This document shows positions 1,328 to 57,991 of a DNA stretch of 64,000 bases, in pieces. The stretch lies in the NCBI GenBank assembly GCA_964016885.1, contig OZ024744.1, positions 130,448,001-130,512,000 on the forward strand. Direction: 5' to 3'. A model generated the notes under the pieces. It did no database searches and was not told the origin of the DNA. It saw only the letters and a program-made list of their open reading frames with translations. The position numbers were made by a program, and so were the translations under genes. Each line of letters opens with the position of its first letter. Within the stretch, counting starts at the first letter, position 1. The DNA comes from Eledone cirrhosa. Lineage: Eukaryota.

Positions 1328-1502
1328 AACCCCAACTTAACTTAACCCCAACTTCACTCAACCCCAACGTAACTCAACCCCAACTTAACTTAACCCCAAC
1401 TTCACTCAACCCCAACTTAACTTAACCCCAACTTCACTCAACCCCAACTTCCAACTTGACTTAACCCCAACTTAACTTAGCCCCAACTTAACTTAAGCCC
1501 AA
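1328..1502 (-). repeat. Inverted satellite island 1 (175-bp class)
   Basis: C-rich AACTTAACTTAACCCC units; entry GGAGTT|AACCCC (one G>A in the palindrome centre); carries AACTTCCAACTTGAC; exit TTAAGCCCAAAGTCGGGG. Confidence 0.95.
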
Positions 1503-3632
1503 AGTCGGGGTTAAGTTAAGTTGGCGTTAAGTTAAGTTGGCGTTAAGTTAAGTTAGGCTTAACTTAAGTTGGGGTTCAGTTAAGTTGGGGGTAAGTTAAG
1601 TTGGGGGTAAGTTAAGTTGGGGGTAAGTTAAGTTGGGGTTAAGTTAAGTTGCGGTTAAGTTGGGGTTAAGTTAAGTTAGGGTTAAGTTAAGTTGGGGTTG
1701 AGTTAAGTTGGGGTTAATTAAGTGGTGGTTATGTTAAGTTGGGGTTAAGTTAAGTTGGGGTTAATTTAAATTGGGGTTAAGTTAACTTTGTGGTTAAGTT
1801 AAGTTGGGGTTAAGTTAAGTTGGGGTAAAGTTGGGGTTGAGTTAAGTTGGGGTTGAGTGAAGTTGGGGTTAAGTTAAGTTGGGGTTAAGTTAAGTTGGGG
1901 TTAAGATAAGTCGGGGTTAAGTTAAGTTGTGGTTGAGTTAAGTTGGGGTTAATTTAAGTTGGGGCTAAGTTAATTTGTGGTTAAGTTAAGTTGGGGTTAA
2001 GTTAAGTTGGGGTTAAGTTAAGTTGGGGTTGAGTTAAGTTGGGGTTGAGTTAATTTGGGGTTAAGTTAAGTTGGGGTTAAGTTAAGTTGGGTTTAAGTTA
2101 AGTTGGGGTTAAATTAAGTTGGGGTTAAATTAAGTTGGGGTTAAGTTAAGTTGGGGGTAAGTTAAGTTGGGGGCAAGTTAAGTTGGGGTTAATGTAAGTT
2201 GGGGTTAAATTAAGTTGGGGTTACGTTAAGTTGGGGTTAAGTTAAGTTGGGGCTAAGTTAAGTTGGGGCTGAGTTAAGTTGGGGCTGAGTTAAGTTGGGG
2301 CTAAGTTAATTTGGTGTTGAGTTAAGTTGGGGTTAAGTTGGGGTTAAGTTAAGTTAGGTTTAAGTTAAGTTGGGGTTAAGTTAAGTTGGGGTTACGTTAA
2401 GTTGGGGTTAAGTTAAGTTGGGGTTAAGTTAAGTTGGGGTTAAGTTAATTCGTGGTTAAGTTAAGTTGTGGTTAAGTTAAGTTGGGGTTAAGTTAAGTTG
2501 GGCTTAAGTTAAGTCGGGGTTAAGTTAAGTTGGGGTTAAGTTAAGTTGGGGTTAATTTAAGTTGGGGTTAAGTTAAGTTGGGGTTATGTTAAGTTGGGTT
2601 TAAGTTAAGTTGGGGTTAAGTTAAGTTGAGGTTAAGTTAAGTTGGGGTTAAATTAAGTTGGGGTTAAGTTAAGTTGGGGTTAAGTTAAGTTGGGGTTAAG
2701 TTAAGTTGGGGATAAGTTAAGTTGGGGATAATTTAAGTTGGGGTTAAGTTAAGTTGGGTTTAAGTTAAGTTGGGTTTAAGTTAAGTTGGGGTTAAGTTAA
2801 GTTGGGGTTAAGTTAAGTTGGGGTTAAGTTAAGTTGGGGCTAAGTTAAGTTGGGGCTGAGTTAAGTTGGGGTTAAGTTAAATTGGGGTTAAGTTAAGTTG
2901 GGGTTAAGTTAAGTTGGGGTTAAGTTAAGTTGGGGTTTATTTAAGTTGGGGTTAAGTTAAGTTGGGGTTCAGTTAAGTTGGGGTTCAGTTAAATGGGGTT
3001 AAGTTAAGTTGGGGTTAAGATGGGGTTAAATTAAGTTGGGGTTAAGTTAAGTTGGGGTTAAGTTAAGTTGGGGTTAAGCTAAGTTGGGGTTAGGTTAAGT
3101 CGGGGTTAAGTTAAGTCGGGGTTAAGTTAAGTTAGGGTTCAGTTAAGTTGGGGTTAAGTTAAGTTGGGGTTGAGTTAAGTTGGGGTTGAGTTAAGTTGGG
3201 GTTAAGTTAAGTCGGGGTTAAGTTAAGTTGCAGTTAAGTTAAGTTGAGGTTAAGTTAAGGTGCGGTTAAGTTAAGTTGGGGTTAAGTTAAGTTGGGGCTA
3301 AGTTAAGTTGGGGCTAAGTTAAGTTGGGGCTAAGTTAAGTTGGGGTTAAGTTAAGTCGGGGTTAAGTTAAGTTGGGGTTAAGTTAAGTTGGGGTTAATTT
3401 AAGTTGGGGTTAAGTTAAGTTGGGGTTAAGTTAAGTTGGGGTTAAGTTAAGTTGGGGTTGAGTTAAGTTGGGTTTAATTTAAGTTGGGGTTAAGTTAAGT
3501 TGGGGTCAAGTTAAGTTGGGGTTAAGTTAAGTTGGTTAGTTAAGTTGAGTTTAAGTTAAGTTGGGGTTAATTTATGTTGGGGTTAAGTTAAGTTGGGGTT
3601 AAGTTAAGTTGGGGTTAAGTTAAGTTGGGGTT

Positions 3633-3833
3633 AACCCCAACTTAACTTAACCCCAACTTCACTCAACCCCAACGTAACTCAACCCCAACTTAACTTAACC
3701 CCAACTTCACTCAACCCCAACTTAACTTAACCCCAACTTCACTCAACACCAACTTAAGTCAACCCCAACTTAACTTAACCCCAACTTGACTTAACCCCAA
3801 CTTAAATTAGCCCCAACTTAACTTAAGCCCCAA
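3633..3833 (-). repeat. Inverted satellite island 2 (~200-bp class)
   Basis: Entry GGGGTT|AACCCC; private variants CTCAACACCAA and CTTAAATTAGCC; exit GCCCCAAATCGGGG followed by GGCGTTATGTTCAGTCAGGC. Confidence 0.95.
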
Positions 3834-6800
3834 ATCGGGGTTAAGTTAAGTTGGCGTTATGTTCAGTCAGGCTTAACTTAAGTTGGGGTTCAGTTAAGTT
3901 GGGGTTAAGTTAAGTTGCAGTTAAGTTGGGGTTAAGTTAAGTTAGGGTTAAGTTAAGTTGGGGTTGAGTTAAGTTGGGGTTAATTAAGTGGTGGTTATGT
4001 TAAGTTGGGGTTAATTTAAATTGGGGTTAAGTTAACTTTGTGGTTAAGTTAAGTTGGGGTTAAGTTAAGTTGGGGTTAAGTTGGGGTTAAGTTGGGGTTG
4101 AGTTAAGTTGGGGTTGAGTGAAGTTGGGGTTAAGTTAAGTTGGGGTAAAGTTAAGTTGGGGTTAAGTTAAGTCGGGGTTAAGTTAAGTTGTGGTTGAGTT
4201 AAGTTGGGGTTAATTTAAGTTGGGGCTAAGTTAATTTGTGGTTAAGTTAAGTTGGGGTTAAGTTAAGTTGGCGTTGAGTTAAGTTGGGGTTGAGTTAAGT
4301 TGGGGTTAAGTTAAGTTGGGGTCAAGTTAAGTTGGGGTTAAGTTGGGGTTAAGTTAAGTTAGGTTTAAGTTAAATTGGGGTTAAGTTAAGTTGGGGTTAA
4401 GTTAAGTTGGGGTTAAGTTAAGTTGGGGTTAAGTTAAGTTGGGGTTAAGTTAATTTGTGGTTAAGTTAAGTTGGGGTTAAGTTAAGTTGGGGTTAAGTTA
4501 AGTTGGGGTTAAGTTAAGTTGGGGTTAATTTAAGTTGGGGTTAAGTTAAGTTGGGGTTAAGCTAAGTTGGGGTTAAGTTAAGTTGGGGTTAAGTTAAGTT
4601 GGGGTTAAATTAAGTTGGGGTTAAGTTAAGTTGGGGTTAAGTTAAGTTGGTGTTAAATTAAGTTGGGGCTAAGTTAAGTTGGGGCTGAGTTAAGTTGGGG
4701 TTAAGTTGGGGTTAAGTTAAGTTAGGTTTAAGTTAAGTTGGGGTTAAGTTAAGTTGGGGTTAAGTTAAGTTGTGGTTAAGTTAAGTTGGGGTTAAGTTAA
4801 GTTGGGGTTAAGTTAAGTCGGGGTTAAATTAAGTTGGGGTTAAGTTAAGTTGGGGTTAATTTAAGTTGGGGTTAAGTTAAGTTGGGGTTAAGTTAAGTTG
4901 GGGTTAAGTTAATTGGGGTTAAGTTAAGTTGAGGTTAAGTTAAGTTGGGGTTAAATTAAGTTGGGGTTAAGTTAAGTTGGGGTTAAGTTAAGTTGGGGTT
5001 AAGTTAAGTTGGGGATAAGTTAAGTTGGGGATAATTTAAGTTGGGGTTAATTTAAGTTGGGGTTGAGTTAAGTTGGTGTTAAGTTAAGTTGCAGTTAAGT
5101 TAAGTTGAGGTTAAGTTAAGTTGGGGTTAAGTTAAGTTGGGGTTAAGTTAAGTTGGGGCTAAGTTAAGTTGGGGCTAAGTTAAGTTGGGGCTAAGTTAAG
5201 TTGGGGTTAAGTTAAGTTGGGGTTAAGTTAAGTTGGGGTTAAGTTAAGTTGGGGTTAAGTTAAGTTGGTGTTAAGTTAAGTTGGGGCTAAGTTAAGTTGG
5301 GGCTGAGTTAAGTTGGGGCTGAGTTAAGTTGGGGTTAAGTTAAGTTGGGGTTAAGTTAAGTTGGGGATAATTTAAGTTGGGGTTAAGTTAAGTTTGGGTT
5401 TAAGTTAAGTTGGGGTTAAGTTAAGTTGGGGTTAAGTTAAGTTGGGGTTAAGTTAATTTGTGGTTAAGTTAAGTTGGGGTTAAGTTAAGTTGGGGTTGAG
5501 TTAAGTTGGGGCTGAGTTAATTTGGGGTTAAGTTAAGTTGGGGTTAAGTTAAGTTGGGTTTAATTTAAGTTGGGGTTAAATTAAGTTGGGGTTAAATTAA
5601 GTTGGGGTTAAGTTAAGTTGGGGGTAAGTTAAGTTGGGGGCAAGTTAAGTTGGGGTTAATTTAAGTTGGGGTTAAATTAAGTTGGGGTTACGTTAAGTTG
5701 GTGTTAAGTTAAGTTGGGGTTAATTTAAGTTGGGGTTAATTAAGTTGGGGTTAAGTTAAGTTGGGGTTAAGTTAAGTTGGGGTTAATTTAAGTTGGGGTT
5801 GAGTTAAGTTGGGGTTAAGTTAAGTTGGGGTTATATTAAGTTGGGGTTAAGTTAAGTTGGGGTTCAGTTAAGTTGGGGTTAAGTTAAGTTGGTGTTAAGT
5901 TAAGTTGGGGCTAAGTTAAGTTGGGGCTGAGTTAAGTTGGGGCTGAGTTAAGTTGGGGCTAAGTTAAGTTGGGGTTGAGTTAAGTTGGGGTTAAGTTGGG
6001 GTTAAGTTAAGTTAGGTTTAAGTTAAGTTGGGGTTAAGTTAAGTTGGGGTTAAGTTAAGTTGGGGTTAAGCTAAGTTGGGGTTAAGTTAAGTTGGGGTTA
6101 AGTTAAGTTGGGGTTGAGTTAATTTGTGGCTAAGTTAAGTTGTGGTTAAGTTAAGTTGGGGTTAAGTTAAGTTGGGGTTAAGTTAAGTCGGGGTTAAGTT
6201 AAGTTGGGGTTAAGTTAAGTTGGGGTTAATTTAAGTTGGGGTTAAGTTAAGTTGGGGTTAAGTTAAGTTGGGGTTAAGTTAAGTCGGGGTTAAGTTAAGT
6301 TGGGGTTAAGTTAAGTTGGGGTTAATTTAAGTTGGGGTTAAGTTAAGTTGGGGTTAAGTTAAGTTGGGGTTAAGTTAAGTTGGGGTTAAGTTAAGTTGGG
6401 GATAATTTAAGTTGGGGTTAAGTTAAGTTTGAGTTTAAGTTAAGTTGGGGTTAAGTTAAGTTGGGGTTAAGTTAAGTTGGGGTTAATTTAAGTTGGTTAG
6501 TTAAGTTGAGTTTAAGTTAAGTTGGGGTTAATTTAAGTTGGGGTTAAGTTAAGCTGGGGTTAAGTTAAGTTGGGGTTAAGTTAAGTTGGGATTAATTTAA
6601 GTTGGGGTTAATTTAAGTCGGGGTTAAGTTAAGTTGTGGTTGAGTTAAGTTTGGGTTAATTTAAGTTGGGGCTAAGTTAATTTGTGGTTAAGTTAAGTTG
6701 GGGTTAAGTTAAGTTGGGGTTAAGTTAAGTTGGGGTTGAGTTAAGTTGGGGTTGAGTTAATTTGGGGTTAAGTTAAGTTGGGGTTAAGTTAAGTTGGGTT

Positions 6801-9800
6801 TAAGTTAAGTTGGGGTTAAATTAAGTTGGGGTTAAATTAAGTTGGGGTTAAGTTAAGTTGGGGGTAAGTTAAGTTGGGGGCAAGTTAAGTTGGGGTTAAT
6901 TTAAGTTGGGGTTAAATTAAGTTGGGGTTACGTTAAGTTGGTGTTAAGTTAAGTTGGGGTTAATTTAAGTTGGGGTTGAGTTAAGTTGGGGTTCAGTTAA
7001 GTTGGGGATAAGTTAAGTTGGGGTTAAGTTAAGTTGGGGTTAATTAAGTTGGGGTTAAGTTAAGTTGGGGTTAAGTTAAGTTGGGGCTAAGTTAAGTTGG
7101 GGCTGAGTTAAGTTGGGGCTGAGTTAAGTTGGGGTTAAGTTAAGTTGGGGTTGAGTTAAGTTGGGGTTAAGTTAAGTTGGGGTCAAGTTAAGTTGGGGTT
7201 AAGTTGGGGTTAAGTTAAGTTAGGTTTAAGTTAAGTTGGGGTTAAGTTAAGTTGGGGTTAAGTTAAGTTGGGGTTAAGTTAAGTTGGGGTTAAGTTAAGT
7301 TGGGGTTAAGTTAAGTTGGGGTTAAGTTAATTTGTGGTTTATTTAAGTTGGGGTTAATTTAAGTTGGGGTTAAGTTAAGTTGGGGTTAAGTTAAGTCGGG
7401 GTTAAGTTAAGTTGGGGTTAAGTTAAGTTGGGGTTAAGTTAAGTTGGGGTTAAGTTAAGTTGGGGTTAAGTTAAGTTGGGGTTAAGTTAAGTTGGGGTTA
7501 AGTTAAGTTGGGGTTAAATTAAGTTGGGGTTAAGTTAAGTTGGGGTTAAGTTAAGTTGGGGTTAAGTTAAGTTGGGGATAAGTTAAGTTGGGTTTAAGTT
7601 AAGTTGGGGTTAAGTTAAGTTGGGGATAAGTTAAGTTGGGGTTAAGTTAAGTTGGGGTTAATTTAAGTTGGGGTTAAGTTAAGTTGGGTCTAAGTTAAGT
7701 TGGGGCTGAGTTAAGTTGGGGTTAAGTTAAGTTGGGGTTAAGTTAAGTTGGGGTTAATTTAAGTTGGGGTTTATTTAAGTTGGGGTTAAGTTAAGTTGGG
7801 GTTCAGTTAAGTTGGGGTTAAGTTAAGTTGGGGTTAAGATGGGGTTAAATTAAGTTGGGGTTAAGTTATGTTTGAGTTTAAGTTAAGTTGGGGTTAAGTT
7901 AAGTTGGGGTTAAGTTAAGTTGGGATTAAGTTAAGTTGGTTAGTTAAGTTGAGTTTAAGTTAAGTTGGGGTTAATTTAAGTTGGGGTTAAGTTAAGCTGG
8001 GGTTAAGTTAAGTTGGGGTTAAGTTAAGTTGGGGTTAATTTAAGTTGGGGTTAATTTAAGTCGGGGTTAAGTTAAGTTGTGGTTGAGTTAAGTTGGGGTT
8101 AATTTAAGTTGGGGCTAAGTTAATTTGTGGTTAAGTTAAGTTGGGGTTAAGTTAAGTTGGGGTTAAGTTAAGTTGGGGTTGAGTTAAGTTGGGGTTGAGT
8201 TAATTTGGGGTTAAGTTAAGTTGGGGTTAAGTTAAGTTGGGTTTAAGTTAAGTTGGGGTTAAATTAAGTTGGGGTTAAATTAAGTTGGGGTTAAGTTAAG
8301 TTGGGGGTAAGTTAAGTTGGGGGCAAGTTAAGTTGGGGTTAATTTAAGTTGGGGTTAAATTAAGTTGGGGTTACGTTAAGTTGGTGTTAAGTTAAGTTGG
8401 GGTTAATTTAAGTTGGGGTTGAGTTAAGTTGGGGTTCAGTTAAGTTGGGGATAAGTTAAGTTGGGGTTAAGTTAAGTTGGGGTTAATTAAGTTGGGGTTA
8501 AGTTAAGTTGGGGTTAAGTTAAGTTCGGGCTAAGTTAAGTTGGGGCTGAGTTAAGTTGGGGCTGAGTTAAGTTGGGGTTAAGTTAAGTTGGGGTTGAGTT
8601 AAGTTGGGGTTAAGTTAAGTTGGGGTCAAGTTAAGTTGGGGTTAAGTTGGGGTTAAGTTAAGTTAGGTTTAAGTTAAGTTGGGGTTAAGTTAAGTTGGGG
8701 TTAAGTTAAGTTGGGGTTAAGTTAAGTTGGGGTTAAGTTAAGTTGGGGTTAAGTTAATTTGTGGTTTAGTTAAGTTTGGGTTAAGTTAAGTTGGGGTTAA
8801 GTTAAGTTGGGGTTAAGTTAAGTCGTGGTTAAGTTAAGTTGGGGTTAAGTTAAGTTGGAGTTAAGTTAAGTTGGGGTTAAGTTAAGTTGGGGTTAAGTTA
8901 AGTTGGGGTTAAGTTAAGTTGGGGTTAAGTTAAGTTGAGGTTAAGTTAAGTTGGGGTTAAATTAAGTTGGGGTTAAGTTAAGTTGGGGTTAAGTTAAGTT
9001 GGGGATAAGTTAAGTTGGGGATAATTTAAGTTGGGGTTAAGTTAAGTTGGGGTTAAGTTAAGTTGGGGTTAAGTTAAGTTGGGGATAAGTTAAGTTGGGG
9101 TTAAGTTAAGTTGGGGTTAAGTTAAGTTGGGGTTAAGTTAAGTTGGGGCTAAGTTAAGTTGGGGCTGAGTTAAGTTGGGGTTAAGTTAAGTTGGGGGTTA
9201 AGTTAAGTTGGGGTTAATTTAAGTTGGGGTTTATTTAAGTTGGGGTTAAGTTAAGTTGGGGTTCAGTTAAGTTGGGGTTAAGTTAAGTTGGGGTTAAGAT
9301 GGGGTTAAATTAAGTTGGGGTTAAGTTAAGTTGGGGTTAAGTTAAGTTGGGGTTAAGTTAAGTTGGGGTTAAGTTAAGTCGGGGTTAAGTTAAGTCGGGG
9401 GTAAGTTAAGTTAGGGTTCAGTTAAGTTGGGGTTAAGTTAAGTTGGGGTTGAGTTAAGTTGGGGTTGAGTTAAATTGGGGTTGTGTTAAGTTGGGGTTGA
9501 GTTAAGTTGGTGTTGAGTTAAGTTGGGGTTAAGTTAAGTTGGGGTTAAGTTAAGTTGCAGTTAAGTTAAGTTGAGGTTAAGTTAAGGTGCGGTTAAGTTA
9601 AGTTGGGGTTAAGTTAAGTTGGGGCTAAGTTAAGTTGGGGCTAAGTTAAGTTGGGGCTAAGTTAAGTTGGGGTTAAGTTACGTTGGGGTTAAGTTAAGTC
9701 GGGGTTAAGTTAAGTTGGGGTTAAGTTAAGTTGGGGTTAATTTAAGTTGGGGTTAAGTTAAGTTGGGGTTAAGTTAAGTTGGGGTTAAGTTAAGTTGGGG

Positions 9801-9954
9801 TTAAGTTGGGTTTAAGTTAAGTTGGGGTTAAGTTAAGTTGGGGTCAAGTTAAGTTGGGGTTAAGTTAAGTTGGTTAGTTAAGTTGAGTTTAAGTTAAGTT
9901 GGGGTTAATTTAAGTTGGGGTTAAGTTAAGTTGGGGTTAAGTTAAGTTGGGGTT

Positions 9955-10170
9955 AACCCCAACTTAACTTAACCCCAACTTAACTTAACCCCAACTTCAC
10001 TCAACCCCAACGTAACTCAACCCCAATTTAACTTAACCCCAACTTCACTCAACCCCAACTTAACTTAACCCCAACTTCACTCAATCCCAACTTAAGTCAA
10101 CCCCAACTTAACTTAACCCCAACTTGACTTAACCCCAACTTAACTTAGCCCCAACTTAACTTAAGCCCAA
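9955..10170 (-). repeat. Inverted satellite island 3 (216-bp class)
   Basis: Entry GGGGTT|AACCCC; variants CCCCAATTTAAC and CTCAATCCCAA; exit GCCCAAAGTCGGGG. Confidence 0.95.
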
Positions 10171-12369
10171 AGTCGGGGTTAAGTTAAGTTGGCGTTAAGT
10201 TAAGTTAGGCTTAACTTAAGTTGGGGGTAAGTTAAGTTGGGGGTAAGTTAAGTTGGGGTTAAGTTAAGTTGCGGTTAAGTTGGGGTTAAGTTAAGTTAGG
10301 GTTAAGTTAAGTTGGCGTTGAGTTAAGTTGGGGTTAATTAAGTGGTGGTTATGTTAAGTTGGGGTTAATTTAAATTGGGGTGAAGTTAACTTTGTGGTTA
10401 AGTTAAGTTGGGGTTAAGTTAAGTTGGGGTTAAGTTGGGGTTGAGTTAAGTTGGGGTTGAGTGAAGTTGGGGTTAAGTTAAGTTGGGGTAAAGTTAAGTT
10501 GGGGTTAAGTTAAGTCGGGGTTAAGTTAAGTTGTGGTTGAGTTAAGTTGGGGTTAATTTAAGTTGGGGCTAAGTTAATTTGTGGTTAAGTTAAGTTGGGG
10601 TTAAGTTAAGTTGGGGTTAAGTTAAGTTGGGGTTAAGTTAAGTTGCAGTTAAGTTAAGTTGAGGTTAAGTTAAGTTGGGGTTAAGTTAAGTTGGGGTTAA
10701 GTTAAGTTGGGGCTAAGTTAAGTTGGGGCTAAGTTAAGTTGGGGCTAAGTTAAGTTGGGGTTAAGTTAAGTTGGGGTTAAGTTAAGTTGGGGTTAAGTTA
10801 AGTTGGGGTTAAGTTAAGTTGGTGTTAAGTTAAGTTGGGGCTAAGTTAAGTTGGGGCTGAGTTAAGTTGGGGCTGAGTTAAGTTGGGGTTAAGTTAAGTT
10901 GGGGTTGAGTTAAGTTGGGGTTAAGTTAAGTTGGGGTCAAGTTAAGTTGGGGTTAAGTTGGGGTTAATTTAAGTTAGGCTTAAGTTAAGTTGGGGTTAAG
11001 TTAAGTTGGGGTTAAGTTAAGTTGGGGTTAAGTTAAGTTGGGGTTAAGTTAAGTTGGGGTTAAGTTAATTTGTGGTTAAGTTAAGTTGGGGTTAATTTAA
11101 GTTGGGGTTAAGTTAAGTTGGGGTTAAGTTAAGTCGGGGTTAAGTTAAGTTGGGGTTAAGTTAAGTTGGGGTTAATTTAAGTTGGGGTTAAGTTAAGTTG
11201 GGGTTAAGTTAAGTTGGGGATAATTTAAGTTGGGGTTAAGTTAAGTTTGGGTTTAAGTTAAGTTGGGGTTAAGTTAAGTTGGGGTTAAGTTAAGTTGGGG
11301 TTAAGTTAATTTGTGGTTAAGTTAAGTTGGGGTTAAGTTAAGTTGGGGTTGAGTTAAGTTGGGGCTGAGTTAATTTGGGGTTAAGTTAAGTTGGGGTTAA
11401 GTTAAGTTGGGTTTAAGTTAAGTTGGGGTTAAATTAAGTTGGGGTTAAATTAAGTTGGGGTTAAGTTAAGTTGGGGGTAAGTTAAGTTGGGGGCAAGTTA
11501 AGTTGGGGTTAATTTAAGTTGGGGTTAAATTAAGTTGGGGTTACGTTAAGTTGGTGTTAAGTTAAGTTGGGGTTAATTTAAGTTGGGGTTAATTAAGTTG
11601 GGGTTAAGTTAAGTTGGGGTTAAGTTAAGTTGGGGTTAATTTAAGTTGGGGTTGAGTTAAGTTGGGGTTAAGTTAAGTTGGGGTTATATTAAGTTGGGGT
11701 TAAGTTAAGTTGGGGTTCAGTTAAGTTGGGGTTAAGTTAAATTGGGGTTAAGTTAAGTTGAGGTTAAGTTAAGTTGGGGTTAAGTTAAGTTGGTGTTAAG
11801 TTAAGTTGGGGCTAAGTTAAGTTGGGGCTGAGTTAAGTTGGGGCTGAGTTAAGTTGGGGCTAAGTTAAGTTGGGGTTGAGTTAAGTTGAGGTTAAGTTGG
11901 GGTTAAGTTAAGTTAGGTTTAAGTTAAGTTGGGGTTAAGTTAAGTTGGGGTTAAGTTAAGTTGGGGTTAAGTTAAGTTGGGGTTAAGTTAAGTTGGGGTT
12001 AAGTTAAGTTGGGGTTGAGTTAATTTGTGGTTAAGTTAAGTTGTGGTTAAGTTAAGTTGGGGTTAAGTTAAGTTGGGGTTAAGTTAAGTCGGGGTTAAGT
12101 TAAGTTGGGGTTAAGTTAAGTTGGGGTTAATTTAAGTTGGGGTTAAGTTAAGTTGGGGTTAAGATAAGTTGGGGTTAAGTTAAGTCGGGGTTAAGTTAAG
12201 TTGGGGTTAAGTTAAGTTGGGGTTAATTTAAGTTGGGGTTAAGTTAAGTTGGGGTTAAGTTAAGTTGGGGTTAAGTTAAGTTGGGGTTAAGTTAAGTTGG
12301 GGATAATTTAAGTTGGGGTTAAGTTAAGTTTGAGTTTAAGTTAAGTTGGGGTTAAGTTAAGTTGGGGTT

Positions 12370-18044: not shown

Positions 18045-18260
18045 AACCCCAACTTAACTTAACCCCAACTTAATTTAACCCCAACTTCACTCAACCCCAA
18101 CGTAACTCAACCCCAATTTAACTTAACCCCAACTTCACTCAACCCCAACTTAACTTAACCCCAACTTCACTCAATCCCAACTTAAGTCAACCCCAACTTA
18201 ACTTAACCCCAACTTGACTTAACCCCAACTTAACTTAGCCCCAACTTAACTTAAGCCCAA
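18045..18260 (-). repeat. Inverted satellite island 4 (216-bp class)
   Basis: Same junctions and variants as island 3 plus AACTTAATTTAAC. Confidence 0.95.
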
Positions 18261-38787: not shown

Positions 38788-38971
38788 AACCCCAACTTAA
38801 CTTAACCCCAACTTCACTCAACCCCAACGTAACTCAACCCCAACTTAACTTAACCCCAACTTCACTCAACCCCAACTTAACTTAACCCCAACTTCACTCA
38901 ACCCCAACTTAAGTCAACCCCAACTTAACTTAACCCCAACTTGACTTAACCCCAACTTAACTTAAGCCCAA
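38788..38971 (-). repeat. Inverted satellite island 13 (184-bp class)
   Basis: Matches island 11 at offset 5231 bp; exit GCCCAAAGTCGGAG. Confidence 0.95.
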
Positions 38972-40785: not shown

Positions 40786-40960
40786 AACCCCAACTTAACT
40801 TAACCCCAACTTCACTCAACCCCAACGTAACTCAACCCCAACTTAACTTAACCCCAACTTCACTCAACCCCAACTTAACTTAACCCCAACTTCACTCAAC
40901 CCCAACTTCCAACTTGACTTAACCCCAACTTAACTTAGCCCCAACTTAACTTAAGCCCAA
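40786..40960 (-). repeat. Inverted satellite island 14 (175-bp class)
   Basis: Matches island 12 at offset 5231 bp. Confidence 0.95.
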
Positions 40961-44782: not shown

Positions 44783-44957
44783 AACCCCAACTTAACTTAA
44801 CCCCAACTTCACTCAACCCCAACGTAACTCAACCCCAACTTAACTTAACCCCAACTTCACTCAACCCCAACTTAACTTAACCCCAACTTCACTCAACCCC
44901 AACTTCCAACTTGACTTAACCCCAACTTAACTTAGCCCCAACTTAACTTAAGCCCAA
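44783..44957 (-). repeat. Inverted satellite island 15 (175-bp class)
   Basis: AACTTCCAACTTGAC; standard junctions. Confidence 0.95.
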
Positions 44958-47900: not shown

Positions 47901-48439
47901 GTTAAGTTGGGTTTAAGTTAAGTTGGGGTTAAGTTAAGTTGGGGTTAAGTTAAGTTGGGGTTAAGTTAAGTTGGGGTTAAGTTAAGTTGGGGCTAAGTTA
48001 AGTTGGGGCTGAGTTAAGTTGGGGTTAAGTTAAGTTGGGGTTAAGTTAAGTTGGGGTTAAGTTAAGTTGGGGTTAATTTAAGTTGGGGTTAAGTTAAGTT
48101 GCGGGTAATTTAAGTTGGGGTTAAGTTAAGTTGGGGTTAAGTTAAGTTGGGGTTAAGTTAAGTTGGGGTTAAGTTAAGTTGGGGTTAAGTTAAGTTGGGG
48201 TTTATTTAAGTTGGGGTTAAGTTAAGTTGGGGTTCAGTTAAGTTGCAGTTAAGTCAAGTTGAGGTTAAGTTAAGGTGCGGTTAAGTTAAGTTGGGGTTAA
48301 TTTAAGTTGGGGTTAAGTTAAGTTGGGGTTAAGTTAAGTTGGTTAGTTAAGTTGAGTTTAAGTTAAGTTGGGGTTAATTTAAGTTGGGGTTAAGTTAAGT
48401 TGGGGTTAAGTTAAGTTGGGGTTAAGTTAAGTTGGGGTT

Positions 48440-48614
48440 AACCCCAACTTAACTTAACCCCAACTTCACTCAACCCCAACGTAACTCAACCCCAACTTAA
48501 CTTAACCCCAACTTCACTCAACCCCAACTCAACTTAACCCCAACTTCACTCAACCCCAACTTCCAACTTGACTTAACCCCAACTTAACTTAGCCCCAACT
48601 TAACTTAAGCCCAA
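48440..48614 (-). repeat. Inverted satellite island 16 (175-bp class)
   Basis: AACTTCCAACTTGAC plus private variant CCCCAACTCAACTTAA. Confidence 0.95.
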
Positions 48615-50871
48615 AGTCGGGGTTAAGTTAAGTTGGCGTTAAGTTAAGTTGGCGTTAAGTTAAGTTAGGCTTAACTTAAGTTGGGGTTCAGTTAAGTTGG
48701 GGGTAAGTTAAGTTGGGGGTAAGTTAAGTTGGGGGTAAGTTAAGTTGGGGTTAAGTTAAGTTGCGGTTAAGTTGGGGTTAAGTTAAGTTAGGGTTAAGTT
48801 AAGTTGGGGTTGAGTTAAGTTGGGGTTAATTAAGTGGTGGTCATGTTAAGTTGGGGTTAAGTTAAGTTGGGGTTAATTTAAATTGGGGTTAAGTTAACTT
48901 TGTGGTTAAGTTAAGTTGGGGTTAAGTTAAGTTGGGGTAAAGTTGGGGTTGAGTTAAGTTGGGGTTGAGTGAAGTTGGGGTTAAGTTAAGTTGGGGTTAA
49001 GTTAAGTTGGGGTTAAGATAAGTCGGGGTTAAGTTAAGTTGTGGTTGAGTTAAGTTGGGGTTAATTTAAGTTGGGGCTAAGTTAATTTGTGGTTAAGTTA
49101 AGTTGGGGTTAAGTTAAGTTGGGGTTAAGTTAAGTTGGGGTTGAGTTAAGTTGGGGTTGAGTTAATTTGGGGTTAAGTTAAGTTGGGGTTAAGTTAAGTT
49201 GGGTTTAAGTTAAGTTGGGGTTAAATTAAGTTGGGGTTAAATTAAGTTGGGGTTAAGTTAAGTTGGGGGTAAGTTAAGTTGGGGGCAAGTTAAGTTGGGG
49301 TTAATGTAAGTTGGGGTTAAATTAAGTTGGGGTTACGTTAAGTTGGTGTTAAGTTAAGTTGGGGTTAATTTAAGTTGGGGTTAATTAAGTTGGGGTTAAG
49401 TTAAGTTGGGGTTAAGTTAAGTTGGGGTTAATTTAAGTTGGGGTTGAGTTAAGTTGGGGTTAAGTTAAGTTGGGGTTAAGTTAAGTTGGGGTTAATTTAA
49501 GTTGGGGCTAAGTTAAGTTGGGGCTGAGTTAAGTTGGGGCTGAGTTAAGTTGGGGCTAAGTTAAGTTGGTGTTGAGTTAAGTTGGGGTTAAGTTGGGGTT
49601 AAGTTAAGTTAGGTTTAAGTTAAGTTGGGGTTAAGTTAAGTTGGGGTTACGTTAAGTTGGGGTTAAGTTAAGTTGGGGTTAAGTTAATTTGTGGTTAAGT
49701 TAAGTTGTGGTTAAGTTAAGTTGGGGTTAAGTTAAGTTGGGCTTAAGTTAAGTCGGGGTTAAGTTAAGTTGGGGTTAAGTTAAGTTGGGGTTAATTTAAG
49801 TTGGGGTTAAGTTAAGTTGGGGTTGAGTTAAGTTGGGGTTAAGTTAAGTTGGGGTTATATTAAGTTGGGGTTAAGTTAAGTTGGGGTTAATTTAAGTTGG
49901 GGTTAAGTTAAGTTGGGGTTAAGTTAAGTTGGTGTTAAGTTAAGTTTCGGCTAAGTTAAGTTGGGGTTGAGTTAAGTTGGGGTTAAGTTGGGGTTAAATT
50001 AAGTTAGGTTTAAGTTAAGTTGGGGTTAAGTTAAGTTGGGGTTAAGTTAAGTTGTGGTTAAGTTAAGTTGGGGTTAAGTTAAGTTGGGGTTAAGTTAAGT
50101 CGGGGTTGAGTTAAGTTGGGGTTAAGTTAAGTTGGGGTTAATTTAAGTTGGGGTTAAGTTAAGTTGGGGTTAAGTTAAGTTGGGGTTAAGTTAATTGGGG
50201 TTAAGTTAAGTTGGGGTTAAGTTAAGTTGAGGTTAAGTTAAGTTGGGGTTAAATTAAGTTTGGGTTAAGTTAAGTTGGGGTTAAGTTAAGTTGGGGATAA
50301 GTTAAGTTGGGGATAATTTAAGTTGGGGTTAAGTTAAGTTGGGTTTAAGTTAAGTTGGGGTTAAGTTAAGTTGGGGTTAAGTTAAGTTGGGGTTAAGTTA
50401 AGTTGGGGTTAAGTTAAGTTGGGGCTAAGTTAAGTTGGGGCTGAGTTAAGTTGGGGTTAAGTTAAGTTGGGGTTAAGTTAAGTTGGGGTTAAGTTAAGTT
50501 GGGGTTAATTTAAGTTGGGGTTAAGTTAAGTTGCGGGTAATTTAAGTTGGGGTTAAGTTAAGTTGGGGTTAAGTTAAGTTGGGGTTAAGTTAAGTTGGGG
50601 TTAAGTTAAGTTGGGGTTAAGTTAAGTTGGGGTTTATTTAAGTTGGGGTTAAGTTAAGTTGGGGTTCAGTTAAGTTGCAGTTAAGTCAAGTTGAGGTTAA
50701 GTTAAGGTGCGGTTAAGTTAAGTTGGGGTTAATTTAAGTTGGGGTTAAGTTAAGTTGGGGTTAAGTTAAGTTGGTTAGTTAAGTTGAGTTTAAGTTAAGT
50801 TGGGGTTAATTTAAGTTGGGGTTAAGTTAAGTTGGGGTTAAGTTAAGTTGGGGTTAAGTTAAGTTGGGGTT

Positions 50872-51046
50872 AACCCCAACTTAACTTAACCCCAACTTCA
50901 CTCAACCCCAACGTAACTCAACCCCAACTTAACTTAACCCCAACTTCACTCAACCCCAACTCAACTTAACCCCAACTTCACTCAACCCCAACTTCCAACT
51001 TGACTTAACCCCAACTTAACTTAGCCCCAACTTAACTTAAGCCCAA
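50872..51046 (-). repeat. Inverted satellite island 17 (175-bp class)
   Basis: Matches island 16 including CCCCAACTCAACTTAA; offset 2432 bp. Confidence 0.95.
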
Positions 51047-52229
51047 AGTCGGGGTTAAGTTAAGTTGGCGTTAAGTTAAGTTGGCGTTAAGTTAAGTTAG
51101 GCTTAACTTAAGTTGGGGTTCAGTTAAGTTGGGGGTAAGTTAAGTTGGGGGTAAGTTAAGTTGGGGGTAAGTTAAGTTGGGGTTAAGTTAAGTTGCGGTT
51201 AAGTTGGGGTTAAGTTAAGTTAGGGTTAAGTTAAGTTGGGGTTGAGTTAAGTTGGGGTTAATTAAGTGGTGGTCATGTTAAGTTGGGGTTAAGTTAAGTT
51301 GGGGTTAATTTAAATTGGGGTTAAGTTAACTTTGTGGTTAAGTTAAGTTGGGGTTAAGTTAAGTTGGGGTAAAGTTGGGGTTGAGTTAAGTTGGGGTTGA
51401 GTGAAGTTGGGGTTAAGTTAAGTTGGGGTTAAGTTAAGTTGGGGTTAAGATAAGTCGGGGTTAAGTTAAGTTGTGGTTGAGTTAAGTTGGGGTTAATTTA
51501 AGTTGGGGCTAAGTTAATTTGTGGTTAAGTTAAGTTGGGGTTAAGTTAAGTTGGGGTTAAGTTAAGTTGGGGTTGAGTTAAGTTGGGGTTGAGTTAATTT
51601 GGGGTTAAGTTAAGTTGGGGTTAAGTTAAGTTGGGTTTAAGTTAAGTTGGGGTTAAATTAAGTTGGGGTTAAATTAAGTTGGGGTTAAGTTAAGTTGGGG
51701 GTAAGTTAAGTTGGGGGCAAGTTAAGTTGGGGTTAATGTAAGTTGGGGTTAAATTAAGTTGGGGTTACGTTAAGTTGGTGTTAAGTTAAGTTGGGGTTAA
51801 TTTAAGTTGGGGTTAATTAAGTTGGGGTTAAGTTAAGTTGGGGTTAAGTTAAGTTGGGGTTAATTTAAGTTGGGGTTGAGTTAAGTTGGGGTTAAGTTAA
51901 GTTGGGGTTATATTAAGTTGGGGTTAAGTTAAGTTGGGGTTCAGTTAAGTTGGGGTTAAGTTAAGTTGGGGTTAAGTTAAGTTGGGGCTAAGTTAAGTTG
52001 GGGCTGAGTTAAGTTGGGGCTGAGTTAAGTTGGGGCTAAGTTAAGTTGGTGTTGAGTTAAGTTGGGGTTAAGTTGGGGTTAAGTTAAGTTAGGTTTAAGT
52101 TAAGTTGGGGTTAAGTTAAGTTGGGGTTACGTTAAGTTGGGGTTAAGTTAAGTTGGGGTTAAGTTAATTTGTGGTTAAGTTAAGTTGTGGTTAAGTTAAG
52201 TTGGGGTTAAGTTAAGTTGGGCTTAAGTT

Positions 52230-53830
52230 AAGTCGGGGTTAAGTTAAGTTGGGGTTAAGTTAAGTTGGGGTTAATTTAAGTTGGGGTTAAGTTAAGTTGG
52301 GGTTATGTTAAGTTGGGTTTAAGTTAAGTTGGGGTTAAGTTAAGTTGAGGTTAAGTTAAGTTGGGGATAAATTAAGTTGGGGTTAAGTTAAGTTGGGGTT
52401 AAGTTAAGTTGGGGTTAAGTTAAGTTGGGGATAAGTTAAGTTGGGGATAATTTAAGTTGGGGTTAAGTTAAGTTGGGTTTAAGTTAAGTTGGGTTTAAGT
52501 TAAGTTGGGGTTAAGTTAAGTTGGGGTTAAGTTAAGTTGGGGTTAAGTTAAGTTGGGGCTAAGTTAAGTTGGGGCTGAGTTAAGTTGGGGTTAAGTTAAA
52601 TTGGGGTTAAGTTAAGTTGGGGTTAAGTTAAGTTGGGGTTAAGTTAAGTTGGGGTTTATTTAAGTTGGGGTTAAGTTAAGTTGGGGTTCAGTTAAGTTGG
52701 GGTTCAGTTAAATGGGGTTAAGTTAAGTTGGGGTTAAGATGGGGTTAAATTAAGTTGGGGTTAAGTTAAGTTGGGGTTAAGTTAAGTTGGGGTTAAGCTA
52801 AGTTGGGGTTAAGTTAAGTCGGGGTTAAGTTAAGTCGGGGTTAAGTTAAGTTAGGGTTCAGTTAAGTTGGGGTTAAGTTAAGTTGGGGTTGAGTTAAGTT
52901 GGGGTTGAGTTAAGTTGGGGTTAAGTTAAGTTGGGGTTAAGTTAAGTTGCAGTTAAGTTAAGTTGAGGTTAAGTTAAGGTGCGGTTAAGTTAAGTTGGGG
53001 TTAAGTTAAGTTGGGGCTAAGTTAAGTTGGGGCTAAGTTAAGTTGGGGCTAAGTTAAGTTGGGGTTAAGTTAAGTCGGGGTTAAGTTAAGTTGGGGTTAA
53101 GTTAAGTTGGGGTTAATTTAAGTTGGGGTTAAGTTAAGTTGGGGTTATGTTAAGTTGGGTTTAAGTTAAGTTGGGGTTAAGTTAAGTTGAGGTTAAGTTA
53201 AGTTGGGGTTAAATTAAGTTGGGGTTAAGTTAAGTTGGGGTTAAGTTAAGTTGGGGTTAAGTTAAGTTGGGGATAAGTTAAGTTGGGGATAATTTAAGTT
53301 GGGGTTAAGTTAAGTTGGGTTTAAGTTAAGTTGGGTTTAAGTTAAGTTGGGGTTAAGTTAAGTTGGGGTTAAGTTAAGTTGGGGTTAAGTTAAGTTGGGG
53401 CTAAGTTAAGTTGGGGCTGAGTTAAGTTGGGGTTAAGTTAAATTGGGGTTAAGTTAAGTTGGGGTTAAGTTAAGTTGGGGTTAAGTTAAGTTGGGGTTTA
53501 TTTAAGTTGGGGTTAAGTTAAGTTGGGGTTCAGTTAAGTTGGGGTTCAGTTAAATGGGGTTAAGTTAAGTTGGGGTTAAGATGGGGTTAAATTAAGTTGG
53601 GGTTAAGTTAAGTTGGGGTTAAGTTAAGTTGGGGTTAAGCTAAGTTGGGGTTAAGTTAAGTCGGGGTTAAGTTAAGTCGGGGTTAAGTTAAGTTAGGGTT
53701 CAGTTAAGTTGGGGTTAAGTTAAGTTGGGGTTGAGTTAAGTTGGGGTTGAGTTAATTTGGGGTTAAGTTAAGTTGGGGTTAAGTTAAGTTGCAGTTAAGT
53801 TAAGTTGAGGTTAAGTTAAGGTGCGGTTAA
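52230..53830 (+). repeat. Higher-order tandem duplication, offset 842 bp (boundaries approximate)
   Basis: TTATG 52303/53145 and AATGGGG 52711/53553 are offset by 842 with matching variant order. Confidence 0.8.
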
Positions 53831-55295
53831 GTTAAGTTGGGCTTAAGTTAAGTTGGGGCTAAGTTAAGTTGGGGCTCAGTTAAGTTGGGGCTAAGTTAAG
53901 TTGGGGTTAAGTTAAGTTGGGGTTAATTTAAGTTGGGGTTAAGTTAAGTTGGGGTTAAGTTAAGTTGGGGTTAAGTTAAGTTGGGTTTAAGTTAAGTTGG
54001 GGTTAAGTTATGTTGGGGTTGAGTTAAGTTGGGGCTGAGTTAATTTGGGGTTAAGTTAAGTTGGGGTTAAGTTAAGTTGGGTTTAAGTTAAGTTGGGGTT
54101 AAATTAAGTTGGGGTTAAAATAAGTTGGGGTTAAGTTAAGTTGGGGGCAAGTTAAGTTGGGGGCAAGTTAAGTTGGGGTTAAATTAAGTTGGGGTTACGT
54201 TAAGTTGGTGTTAAGTTAAGTTGGGGTTAATTTAAGTTGGGGTTAATTAAGTTGGGGTTAAGTTAAGTTGGGGTTAAGTTAAGTTGGGGTTAATTTAAGT
54301 TGGGGTTGAGTTAAGTTGGGGTTAAGTTAAGTTGGGGTTATATTAAGTTGGGGTTAAGTTAAGTTGGGGTTAATTTAAGTTGGGGTTAAGTTAAGTTGGG
54401 GTTAAGTTAAGTTGGTGTTAAGTTAAGTTTGGGCTAAGTTAAGTTGGGGTTGAGTTAAGTTGGGGTTGAGTTAAGTTGTGGTTAAGTTAAGTTGGGGTTA
54501 AGTTAAGTTGGGGTTAAGTTAAGTCGGGGTTGAGTTAAGTTGGGGTTAAGTTAAGTTGGGGTTAATTTAAGTTGGGGTTAAGTTAAGTTGGGGTTAAGTT
54601 AAGTTGGGGTTAAGTTAATTGGGGTTAAGTTAAGTTGGGGTTAAGTTAAGTTGAGGTTAAGTTAAGTTGGGGTTAAATTAAGTTTGGGTTAAGTTAAGTT
54701 GGGGTTAAGTTAAGTTGGGGATAAGTTAAGTTGGGGATAATTTAAGTTGGGGTTAAGTTAAGTTGGGTTTAAGTTAAGTTGGGGTTAAGTTAAGTTGGGG
54801 TTAAGTTAAGTTGGGGTTAAGTTAAGTTGGGGTTAAGTTAAGTTGGGGCTAAGTTAAGTTGGGGCTGAGTTAAGTTGGGGTTAAGTTAAGTTGGGGTTAA
54901 GTTAAGTTGGGGTTAAGTTAAGTTGGGGTTAATTTAAGTTGGGGTTAAGTTAAGTTGCGGGTAATTTAAGTTGGGGTTAAGTTAAGTTGGGGTTAAGTTA
55001 AGTTGGGGTTAAGTTAAGTTGGGGTTAAGTTAAGTTGGGGTTAAGTTAAGTTGGGGTTTATTTAAGTTGGGGTTAAGTTAAGTTGGGGTTCAGTTAAGTT
55101 GCAGTTAAGTCAAGTTGAGGTTAAGTTAAGGTGCGGTTAAGTTAAGTTGGGGTTAATTTAAGTTGGGGTTAAGTTAAGTTGGGGTTAAGTTAAGTTGGTT
55201 AGTTAAGTTGAGTTTAAGTTAAGTTGGGGTTAATTTAAGTTGGGGTTAAGTTAAGTTGGGGTTAAGTTAAGTTGGGGTTAAGTTAAGTTGGGGTT

Positions 55296-55470
55296 AACCC
55301 CAACTTAACTTAACCCCAACTTCACTCAACCCCAACGTAACTCAACCCCAACTTAACTTAACCCCAACTTCACTCAACCCCAACTTAACTTAACCCCAAC
55401 TTCACTCAACCCCAACTTCCAACTTGACTTAACCCCAACTTAACTTAGCCCCAACTTAACTTAAGCCCAA
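55296..55470 (-). repeat. Inverted satellite island 18 (175-bp class)
   Basis: AACTTCCAACTTGAC; standard junctions. Confidence 0.95.
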
Positions 55471-57791
55471 AGTCGGGGTTAAGTTAAGTTGGCGTTAAGT
55501 TAAGTTGGCGTTAAGTTAAGTTAGGCTTAACTTAAGTTGGGGTTCAGTTAAGTTGGGGGTAAGTTAAGTTGGGGGTAAGTTAAGTTGGGGGTAAGTTAAG
55601 TTGGGGTTAAGTTAAGTTGCGGTTAAGTTGGGGTTAAGTTAAGTTAGGGTTAAGTTAAGTTGGGGTTGAGTTAAGTTGGGGTTAATTAAGTGGTGGTCAT
55701 GTTAAGTTGGGGTTAAGTTAAGTTGGGGTTAATTTAAATTGGGGTTAAGTTAACTTTGTGGTTAAGTTAAGTTGGGGTTAAGTTAAGTTGGGGTAAAGTT
55801 GGGGTTGAGTTAAGTTGGGGTTGAGTGAAGTTGGGGTTAAGTTAAGTTGGGGTTAAGTTAAGTTGGGGTTAAGATAAGTCGGGGTTAAGTTAAGTTGTGG
55901 TTGAGTTAAGTTGGGGTTAATTTAAGTTGGGGCTAAGTTAATTTGTGGTTAAGTTAAGTTGGGGTTAAGTTAAGTTGGGGTTAAGTTAAGTTGGGGTTGA
56001 GTTAAGTTGGGGTTGAGTTAATTTGGGGTTAAGTTAAGTTGGGGTTAAGTTAAGTTGGGTTTAAGTTAAGTTGGGGTTAAATTAAGTTGGGGTTAAATTA
56101 AGTTGGGGTTAAGTTAAGTTGGGGGTAAGTTAAGTTGGGGGCAAGTTAAGTTGGGGTTAATGTAAGTTGGGGTTAAATTAAGTTGGGGTTACGTTAAGTT
56201 GGTGTTAAGTTAAGTTGGGGTTAATTTAAGTTGGGGTTAATTAAGTTGGGGTTAAGTTAAGTTGGGGTTAATTTAAGTTGGGGTTAATTTAAGTTGGGGT
56301 TGAGTTAAGTTGGGGTTAAGTTAAGTTGGGGTTATATTAAGTTGGGGTTAAGTTAAGTTGGGGTTCAGTTAAGTTGGGGTTAAGTTAAGTTGGGGTTAAG
56401 TTAAGTTGGGGCTAAGTTAAGTTGGGGCTGAGTTAAGTTGGGGCTGAGTTAAGTTGGGGCTAAGTTAAGTTGGTGTTGAGTTAAGTTGGGGTTAAGTTGG
56501 GGTTAAGTTAAGTTAGGTTTAAGTTAAGTTGGGGTTAAGTTAAGTTGGGGTTACGTTAAGTTGGGGTTAAGTTAAGTTGGGGTTAAGTTAAGTTGGGGTT
56601 AAGTTAATTTGTGGTTAAGTTAAGTTGTGGTTAAGTTAAGTTGGGGTTAAGTTAAGTTGGGCTTAAGTTAAGTCGGGGTTAAGTTAAGTTGGGGTTAAGT
56701 TAAGTTGGGGTTAATTTAAGTTGGGGTTAAGTTAAGTTGGGGTTATGTTAAGTTGGGTTTAAGTTAAGTTGGGGTTAAGTTAAGTTGAGGTTAAGTTAAG
56801 TTGGGGTTAAATTAAGTTGGGGTTAAGTTAAGTTGGGATTAAGTTAAGTTGGGGTTAAGTTAAGTTGGGGATAAGTTAAGTTGGGGATAATTTAAGTTGG
56901 GGTTAAGTTAAGTTGGGTTTAAGTTAAGTTGGGTTTAAGTTAAGTTGGGGTTAAGTTAAGTTGGGGTTAAGTTAAGTTGGGGTTAAGTTAAGTTGGGGCT
57001 AAGTTAAGTTGGGGCTGAGTTAAGTTGGGGTTAAGTTAAATTGGGGTTAAGTTAAGTTGGGGTTAAGTTAAGTTGGGGTTAAGTTAAGTCGGGGTTTATT
57101 TAAGTTGGGGTTAAGTTAAGTTGGGGTTCAGTTAAGTTGGGGTTCAGTTAAATGGGGTTAAGTTAAGTTGGGGTTAAGATGGGGTTAAATTAAGTTGGGG
57201 TTAAGTTAAGTTGGGGTTAAGTTAAGTTGGGGTTAAGCTAAGTTGGGGTTAAGTTAAGTCGGGGTTAAGTTAAGTCGGGGTTAAGTTAAGTTAGGGTTCA
57301 GTTAAGTTGGGGTTAAGTTAAGTTGGGGTTGAGTTAAGTTGGGGTTGAGTTAAGTTGGGGTTAAGTTAAGTTGGGGTTAAGTTAAGTTGCAGTTAAGTTA
57401 AGTTGAGGTTAAGTTAAGGTGCGGTTAAGTTAAGTTGGGGTTAAGTTAAGTTGGGGCTAAGTTAAGTTGGGGCTAAGTTAAGTTGGGGCTAAGTTAAGTT
57501 GGGGTTAAGTTAAGTCGGGGTTAAGTTAAGTTGGGGTTAAGTTAAGTTGGGGTTAATTTAAGTTGGGGTTAAGTTAAGTTGGGGTTAAGTTAAGTTGGGG
57601 TTAAGTTAAGTTGGGGTTGAGTTAAGTTGGGTTTAATTTAAGTTGGGGTTAAGTTAAGTTGGGGTCAAGTTAAGTTGGGGTTAAGTTAAGTTGGTTAGTT
57701 AAGTTGAGTTTAAGTTAAGTTGGGGTTAATTTATGTTGGGGTTAAGTTAAGTTGGGGTTAAGTTAAGTTGGGGTTAAGTTAAGTTGGGGTT

Positions 57792-57991
57792 AACCCCAAC
57801 TTAACTTAACCCCAACTTCACTCAACCCCAACGTAACTCAACCCCAACTTAACTTAACCCCAACTTCACTCAACCCCAACTTAACTTAACCCCAACTTCA
57901 CTCAACACCAACTTAAGTCAACCCCAACTTAACTTAACCCCAACTTGACTTAACCCCAACTTAAATTAGCCCCAACTTAACTTAAGCCCAA
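57792..57991 (-). repeat. Inverted satellite island 19 (~200-bp class)
   Basis: Shares CTCAACACCAA, CTTAAATTAGCC and downstream GGCGTTATGTTCAGTCAGGC with island 2 only. Confidence 0.95.

What the first reader, a model, noticed from the sequence alone, without database searches (positions are those of the whole stretch)
1328..57991. A satellite array punctuated by 19 copies of one short inversion, each creating a spacer-less palindrome
Seen: every 1.3-8 kb the G-rich strand switches to C-rich for about 8-13 monomers. Entry is always at the monomer's internal TTAA (GGGGTT|AACCCC), giving roughly 27-43 bp of perfect arm in most copies, and the whole island can pair imperfectly with either flank. 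The islands share ordered private variants (TTCACTC, AACGTAACTC, TTGAC) and 18 share the exit, so they are copies of one event rather than independent inversions. Established: spacer-less palindromes with AT centres extrude hairpins/cruciforms and are usually unstable; dyad symmetries have been proposed as non-B-DNA marks of centromeric satellites. Inference: retention of many nearly intact palindromes may reflect either a structural role (cruciform/protein-binding punctuation) or a role as drivers of array amplification. This is the best candidate for an undescribed system here; passive hitch-hiking in duplicated blocks remains a valid null.
Basis: partly seen in the sequence, partly recalled or inferred. 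Interest (0 to 1): 0.75.

Follow-up and report, generated by a model that had tools for sequence, protein, structure and literature searches.

The report
One satellite inversion, copied hundreds-fold
The 19 back-to-front patches in this 16-letter repeat are real copies of one old inversion that has hundreds of copies in the array; it likely arose as a DNA-copying slip and was likely carried along passively by duplications, not kept as a working landmark.

Summary
Observation confirmed: 19 inverted islands (127-212 bp) in a 16-bp satellite, 17 with perfect arms of 27-43 bp. They belong to one family with 679 perfect centres in the genome, inside a roughly 8.5-Mb array of which over 3 Mb lacks them. 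Tests on 317 islands in 866 kb favour hitch-hiking: copy number is mid-range among 17 ordinary markers (182-496), recent duplication breakpoints are not enriched at islands (30 of 354, on 11.6% of positions), the centre changes at the bulk rate, and an island-free block is as young as island-rich ones. The missing spacer is geometry: two other, independent island families are mirror copies of their left flank, offset by 2 or 4 whole monomers, and 6 of 7 independent junctions lie at the monomer's TTAA. The palindrome is not inert: three arm exchanges were seen (one in the window) and the left arm changes monomer number 1.4-3.5 times too often. Raw reads and chromatin were not tested. The scan reported this family before on neighbouring DNA (e1-10311094, e1-10311134). 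Close precedents: Tribolium inversion sites, small inverted triplications.

The parts
1..64000 (+). 16-bp satellite array (unit TTGGGGTTAAGTTAAG), mosaic of duplicated blocks of variant monomers; part of a roughly 8.5-Mb array
1326..1496 (-). island 1 (171 type; substitution beside the centre)
3631..3826 (-). island 2 (196 type)
9953..10164 (-). island 3 (212 type)
18043..18254 (-). island 4 (212 type)
21189..21400 (-). island 5 (212 type)
24111..24322 (-). island 6 (212 type)
26686..26812 (-). island 7, 212 type shortened by a deletion that removed the shared exit and left a new palindromic exit at 26802-26819
28034..28213 (-). island 8 (180 type)
30263..30316 (+). left arm of island 9 carrying two island-private monomers in G-strand orientation: arm exchange across the palindrome centre
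30315..30453 (-). island 9 (171 type shortened by two monomers through the arm exchange)
32067..32278 (-). island 10 (212 type)
33555..33734 (-). island 11 (180 type)
35553..35723 (-). island 12 (171 type)
38786..38965 (-). island 13 (180 type)
40784..40954 (-). island 14 (171 type)
44781..44951 (-). island 15 (171 type)
48438..48608 (-). island 16 (171 type)
50870..51040 (-). island 17 (171 type)
55294..55464 (-). island 18 (171 type)
57790..57985 (-). island 19 (196 type)

Best explanation
The islands are copies of one old inversion, which likely arose by a polymerase template switch at the monomer's self-complementary TTAA and was then likely multiplied passively by the block duplications that build this array. 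The centre has no spacer because a strand switch between in-register TTAA sites of a tandem repeat gives a perfect-looking palindrome however many monomers were skipped (shown for two sister families, inferred for this one). Once present, the island gives inverted homology to its neighbours, so its arms occasionally exchange sequence across the centre, slip in monomer number, and serve as one end of larger inverted copies; exchanges would keep the centre intact and the arms alike without selection. Recombination does not appear to cut inside the island often, so it travels as a cassette.
For: One origin: 131 of 135 islands in 552 kb share the exit, and longer relatives up to about 480 bp share the exit position and downstream marker. 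The downstream marker monomer also occurs without an island in 23 places elsewhere, so it predates the island. Passive copying: 317 islands against 182-496 copies for 17 other markers, dipping in the same bin as its neighbours; 30.4 of 354 recent breakpoints fall on the 11.6% of positions in or next to islands, interior 11.4 against 24.9 expected; island-free 86-kb block 5.9 jumps and 19.4 mismatches per 1000 monomers against 5.1-24.8 and 9.1-64.7 in ten island-bearing blocks; central 16 bp 3-4 private changes against 3.1 expected; no perfect centre listed between 124.69 and 130.247 Mb. Template switch: family 2 (29 copies) and family 3 (3 copies on contig C18) are exact mirrors of their left flank over 52-82 and 64-74 bp, offset by 67 and 34 bp; 6 of 7 independent junctions not picked by a TTAA-directed search sit at TTAA. 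Secondary activity: exchanges at window 30263, at C28:130513014/130570374 and near C28:131061400; a 2-kb inverted piece at C28:132857203 has one end inside an island.
Against: For the window's own family no donor was found: island-private variants never occur in bulk orientation (0 of 153, 0 of 34) except at exchanged arms, so the template-switch origin is by analogy and a plain two-break inversion is possible; its exit is not at TTAA. Signs that the site is not fully neutral: private substitutions within 27 bp of the centre are low (10 against 17.2, P 0.044; 3 of 848 arm monomers against 187 of 19019 bulk; nearest monomers only, Fisher P 0.13), and 0 of 267 downstream markers in the island zone have lost their island, although hairpin slippage removes such structures in E. 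coli (PMC13334657). One genome, one assembly, my own copying model with fixed penalties; it sees only recent, unique events.
Confidence: 0.8

Rival explanations
1. The palindromes are kept by selection as cruciform or protein-binding punctuation, for example in centromeric chromatin.
For: Hundreds of near-perfect centres (294 of 317 unchanged in the central 12 bp); slight deficit of arm substitutions; no loss of the island from its downstream marker (0 of 267); strong predicted hairpin; the same idea is proposed, untested, for Tribolium (PMC13081366).
Against: Centre changes at the bulk rate and damaged centres are themselves duplicated (11 and 6 copies); spacing 238 bp to 36 kb; over 3 Mb of the array has none of this family; the satellite seems largely confined to this one array (83,328 exact dimers at 8-9 per kb is about 10 Mb), so it is not a shared centromere repeat.
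Confidence: 0.07
2. The palindromes drive array growth by stalling forks or being cut, so that island-bearing blocks amplify faster.
For: Left arm shows 17.5 breakpoints against 10.1 expected and 20 monomer-number changes against 5.8, the highest of 31 anchor classes; the island-bearing unit has replaced the island-less one throughout 866 kb; islands end larger inverted copies.
Against: Left-arm breakpoints are not significant after matching for run length (11.2 against 7.5, P 0.14); the slip excess falls to 20 against 9.6 (P 0.002) or 13.9 (P 0.07) with stricter controls; over 90% of breakpoints lie away from islands; blocks with 0, 6, 48 and 49 islands show 5.9, 10.1, 7.8 and 12.6 jumps per 1000 monomers; copy number is not above other markers.
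Confidence: 0.08
3. The islands are sequencing or assembly artefacts (fold-back chimeras, or one island duplicated by mis-assembly).
Against: Fixed junctions, 18 length classes with inherited variants, both orientations, diverged long forms, and private differences of about 1 per kb between nearest copies.
Confidence: 0.03

Closest known systems
Conserved inversion sites / macro-dyad symmetries in Tribolium madens TmSat1 and TmSat2 (PMC13081366; abstract, passages and first part of Discussion read)
   Same: One or few orientation-switch junctions present in thousands of near-identical copies in a satellite array; hairpin or cruciform role proposed but untested.
   Different: There the inverted subarrays are kilobases long, roughly symmetric, on all chromosomes, with degenerate subunits at the switch; here a 0.1-0.5 kb cassette with two junctions, a zero-spacer centre and one main locus, and the neutral tests can be run.
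Small inverted triplications (SIT) and four-point template switches (PMC13334657, abstract and passages; PMC5453318, passages)
   Same: Inverted piece of about 160 bp, about 30-bp offset and about 6-bp reverse-complement junction in SITs; families 2 and 3 here have 145-230-bp islands, 34-67-bp offsets and TTAA junctions and mirror their left flank.
   Different: SITs are somatic or mutant-strain events that are eliminated in E. coli; here the product is fixed in the assembly and amplified. The right-hand duplicate was not found for family 3 and no duplicate at all for the window's family.
Strand switches in human HSat3B5 (chr9) and beta-satellite arrays (10.1101/2021.07.12.452052, passages read)
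   Same: Simple-sequence satellite arrays with over 200 inversion breakpoints.
   Different: The passages read give counts only, not junction ancestry or arm exchange.
Dyad-symmetry model of centromeres (PMC5889037, search listing only) and cichlid centroids (PMC13652916, passages)
   Same: Inverted symmetry within satellite DNA.
   Different: Those concern sub-10-bp dyads in every monomer or one pair of 15-kb elements around the active centromere; no centromere evidence exists here.

Membership tests
Amplified satellite inversion site (Tribolium macro-dyad type) | Same orientation-switch junction in many near-identical copies | tested here: met
   679 perfect centres; 131 of 135 share the exit
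Amplified satellite inversion site (Tribolium macro-dyad type) | Kilobase-long, roughly symmetric inverted subarrays | tested here: not met
   islands 52-483 bp between kilobase flanks
Amplified satellite inversion site (Tribolium macro-dyad type) | Dominant (peri)centromeric satellite on all chromosomes | tested here: inconclusive
   about 10 Mb in all, most in the C28 array, small arrays on C2 and C18; only first places are listed; centromere position unknown
Small inverted triplication / template switch | Inverted piece mirrors the sequence just upstream, with an offset | tested here: inconclusive
   met for families 2 and 3, not met for the window's family
Small inverted triplication / template switch | Short reverse-complement microhomology at both junctions | tested here: inconclusive
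   window family: TTAA at entry, about 1 bp at exit; families 2 and 3: TTAA at both ends
Small inverted triplication / template switch | Second direct duplicate to the right of the inverted piece | tested here: not met
   family 3 markers absent from the right flank, family 2 only one marker, window family none
Functional centromeric non-B DNA | CENP-A occupancy or in vivo cruciform signal | not testable with these tools
   no chromatin or probing data
Functional centromeric non-B DNA | Centre conserved beyond neutral markers | tested here: not met
   3-4 private changes against 3.1 expected in the central 16 bp; weak deficit in arms only
Palindrome-driven amplification (fragile-site, BFB or ODIRA-like growth) | Duplication breakpoints cluster at the palindrome | tested here: not met
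   30.4 of 354 on 11.6% of positions

The most novel reading that the evidence does not exclude
The islands are self-maintaining cruciform punctuation: a satellite whose monomer carries its own dyad keeps spawning inversion cassettes, arm exchange repairs their symmetry, and the island-rich zone marks a distinct chromatin domain (possibly this chromosome's centromere) that depends on them.
Probability: 0.07. Interest if true: 0.75.

Novelty: new member of a known kind. Interest (0 to 1): 0.3.

Why it matters
Conserved inversion sites in satellites are being read as signs of function (PMC13081366). This array shows that hundreds of near-identical, spacer-less palindromes can be matched in number, spacing and centre conservation by ordinary hitch-hiking markers, and that the lack of a spacer can be an effect of tandem geometry. 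It offers a neutral yardstick for such claims, three independent births of the same kind of scar, and a small set of arm exchanges that would be testable in population long reads. It is not a new functional system on present evidence.

Tried and rejected
Raw-read confirmation: no reads were laid on the array, so this is open. Donor of the window's family: searched in all fetched loci, not found. The 23.5-kb inverted block at C28:131964579 seemed to end in an island, but a 200-N gap lies in that end, so it was dropped as evidence. One search's count of one palindromic exit holds only for that exact pattern; family 3 has such an exit with another flank. The first 466-kb run suggested a 2.4-fold excess of breakpoints in the left arm; it fell to 1.7 with 866 kb and was not significant after matching. 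Telomere reading: the array ends about 1 Mb before the contig end, which carries other repeats; a search for long telomere-type hexamer runs found many interstitial ones and did not bear on the question. Rfam on 8 flank and spacer loci: one histone 3' stem-loop, nothing in the satellite. ORFs beside the 124.7-Mb cluster are repeat-derived. Paper searches listed no description of this satellite or of a neutral test of amplified inversion sites; the library lacks most subscription journals, and no supplements were read.
Full report
Observation. The whole window is a 16-bp tandem repeat. A strand-labelling script finds 19 C-rich islands of 127-212 bp, 1,348-8,090 bp apart. All enter at the first TTAA of the monomer; perfect arms are 27-43 bp in 17 of 19; 18 share the exit. 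A strand with an island is predicted to fold far more stably than bulk array (-178.8 against -40.5 kcal/mol over 481 nt); this is a computed property of any inverted repeat, not evidence of folding in the cell.

Setting. The window is C28:130,448,001-130,512,000 of a 3.0-Gb genome. Samples show satellite from 127.0 to 135.2 Mb and none at 126.5 or 135.5 Mb of the 136.5-Mb contig. The genome holds 83,328 exact dimers; at 8-9 per kb that is about 10 Mb, so most of the satellite lies in this one array, with small arrays on C2 and C18. The organism is not established; flanking repeats resemble octopus elements from memory, and an earlier scan note says the same, both unverified. There are 679 perfect 26-bp centres: 23 listed in a reversed block at 124.6-124.7 Mb, none listed from there to 130.247 Mb, and the rest beyond (only the first 100 rows are shown). 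So over 3 Mb of array grew without this family.

One family. In 552 contiguous kb, 131 of 135 islands share the exit. Further along, longer forms of 230-480 bp have the same entry, the same exit position and the same downstream marker monomer; the 124.6-Mb cluster is the same family in a reversed block. The short forms look like internal deletions of a longer ancestor (inference). The downstream marker also occurs without an island in 23 places outside the island zone, so the island arrived in an older context.

How such islands arise. Two other families were found. Family 2 has 29 copies at 128.57-129.60 Mb; family 3 has 3 copies on C18. In both the island is an exact mirror of the left flank's private variants (52-82 bp and 64-74 bp in two copies each), beginning 67 and 34 bp, that is 4 and 2 monomers, into the island. 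This is the signature of a template switch: synthesis moves to the opposite strand a few monomers ahead and copies backwards. Because the skipped part is made of monomers, the junction looks like a spacer-less palindrome. Of 7 independent junctions not picked by a TTAA-directed search (window family entry and exit, family 2 entry and exit, family 3 exit, the junctions at 131,964,579 and 132,859,239), 6 lie at TTAA; by my count about 8% of phase combinations would do so by chance. Sizes match small inverted triplications (160-bp inverted piece, 30-bp spacer, 6-bp junction; PMC13334657, abstract and passages) and the four-point model (PMC5453318, passages). For the window's family the donor was not found: its private variants occur only against the bulk strand (153 of 153, 34 of 34), so the same origin is inferred, not shown.

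Hitch-hiker or driver. I parsed 866 kb (130.246-131.112 Mb, 55,369 monomers, 317 islands) and ran a copying model that explains each stretch by its closest other copy on either strand; switches mark recent unique junctions. Copy number: 317 islands against 182-496 for 17 distinctive variant monomers that I chose as likely single-origin markers, with a shared dip in the fourth of eight bins for its neighbours. Breakpoints: of 362 switches, 8 involve the opposite strand and were set apart; 30.4 of the other 354 fall on the 11.6% of positions in or beside islands, and the interior is under-hit (11.4 against 24.9). Age: the one island-free 86-kb block lies within the range of ten island-bearing blocks, with no clear trend by island number. 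Centre: 4 private changes listed in the central 16 bp, one of them an alignment artefact, against 3.1 expected; damaged centres were themselves duplicated 11 and 6 times. Spacing runs from 238 bp to 35.7 kb.

Results against pure neutrality. The run of consensus monomers left of the centre changed length 20 times against 5.8 expected, the top of 31 anchor classes; counting the half monomer and near-consensus neighbour as part of the run gives 9.6 (P 0.002) or 13.9 (P 0.07). Private substitutions within 27 bp of the centre are low (10 against 17.2, P 0.044). No downstream marker in the zone has lost its island (0 of 267). Three separate arm exchanges were seen among 317 islands: window 30263, a pair at 130,513,014/130,570,374 on another island type, and one near 131,061,400; no new inversion arose in bulk array in the same 866 kb. 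A 2-kb inverted piece at 132,857,203 has one end inside an island and the other at a fresh TTAA junction, and a reversed family 2 copy at 128.585 Mb looks similar. So the palindrome is a modest local rearrangement site. Exchange across the centre would keep the centre and even out the arms, which may explain the substitution deficit without selection; this step is inferred. Hairpin-related sequencing error could also inflate the slip count.

Comparison. Amplified conserved inversion sites are described in Tribolium madens, with an untested hairpin or centromere proposal (PMC13081366; abstract, passages, first part of Discussion). Human HSat3B5 and beta-satellite arrays hold over 200 strand switches (10.1101/2021.07.12.452052, passages). 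Inverted triplications cluster in AT-rich centromeric and subtelomeric DNA of Aspergillus (10.1101/2025.01.14.632981, abstract). Cichlid centroids are a different, paired 15-kb design (PMC13652916, passages). The scan has reported this island family on neighbouring windows with a like verdict; those notes are unchecked and were not counted as support, though one led me to fetch the 132.8-Mb region.

Verdict. Real, one origin, most likely passive, mildly unstable; a new member of a known kind. Limits: one assembly, no raw reads, no chromatin data, about 1.5 Mb of an 8.5-Mb array read, and a home-made model that sees only recent events.

Noticed in passing
G000:C28:128.57-129.60 Mb (L115, L117, L129-L138): Second, independent island family, 29 copies, 1-bp-spacer centre, mirror copy of its left flank offset by 4 monomers; one copy (L131) is reversed as part of a larger inverted duplication around an AT-rich insert.
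   Followed up: yes
G000:C18:10.13-10.19 Mb (L140-L142): Third independent family, 3 copies, perfect palindromes at both ends, mirror of the left flank offset by 2 monomers.
   Followed up: yes
window, 2-4 monomers after most exits (e.g. about 1553-1568): Variant monomer that differs from consensus as if 6 bp around TTAA had been inverted; older than the island.
   Followed up: partly
L066-L068 (C2:209.19-209.31 Mb) and L059:2800-6500: On C2 the 16-mer occurs as runs of about 250 bp inside a 520-bp unit with a GC-richer spacer; a related spacer forms long inverted repeats beside the 124.7-Mb cluster. Possibly the source of the satellite.
   Followed up: no
L059:1839-1883: Rfam histone 3' stem-loop just after an assembly gap, with no histone ORF seen in the locus.
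   Followed up: partly
L026, L027, L040, L117, L118, L132: AT-rich inserts of about 1.6-2.5 kb recur within the array and are duplicated with it.
   Followed up: no
C28:131,964,579-131,988,064 and about 132.8-133.3 Mb (L039, L184-L202, L028, L124): Large reversed blocks of the array containing reversed islands; the smaller one has a 200-N gap at one end.
   Followed up: partly
C28:130,418,255 and 130,422,464: Two islands cut to 52 bp by a deletion with a new exit, each 238 bp before the next island.
   Followed up: no
L123:7320-8700: About 1.3 kb of degenerate telomere-like hexamers at 126.5 Mb, just outside the array.
   Followed up: no
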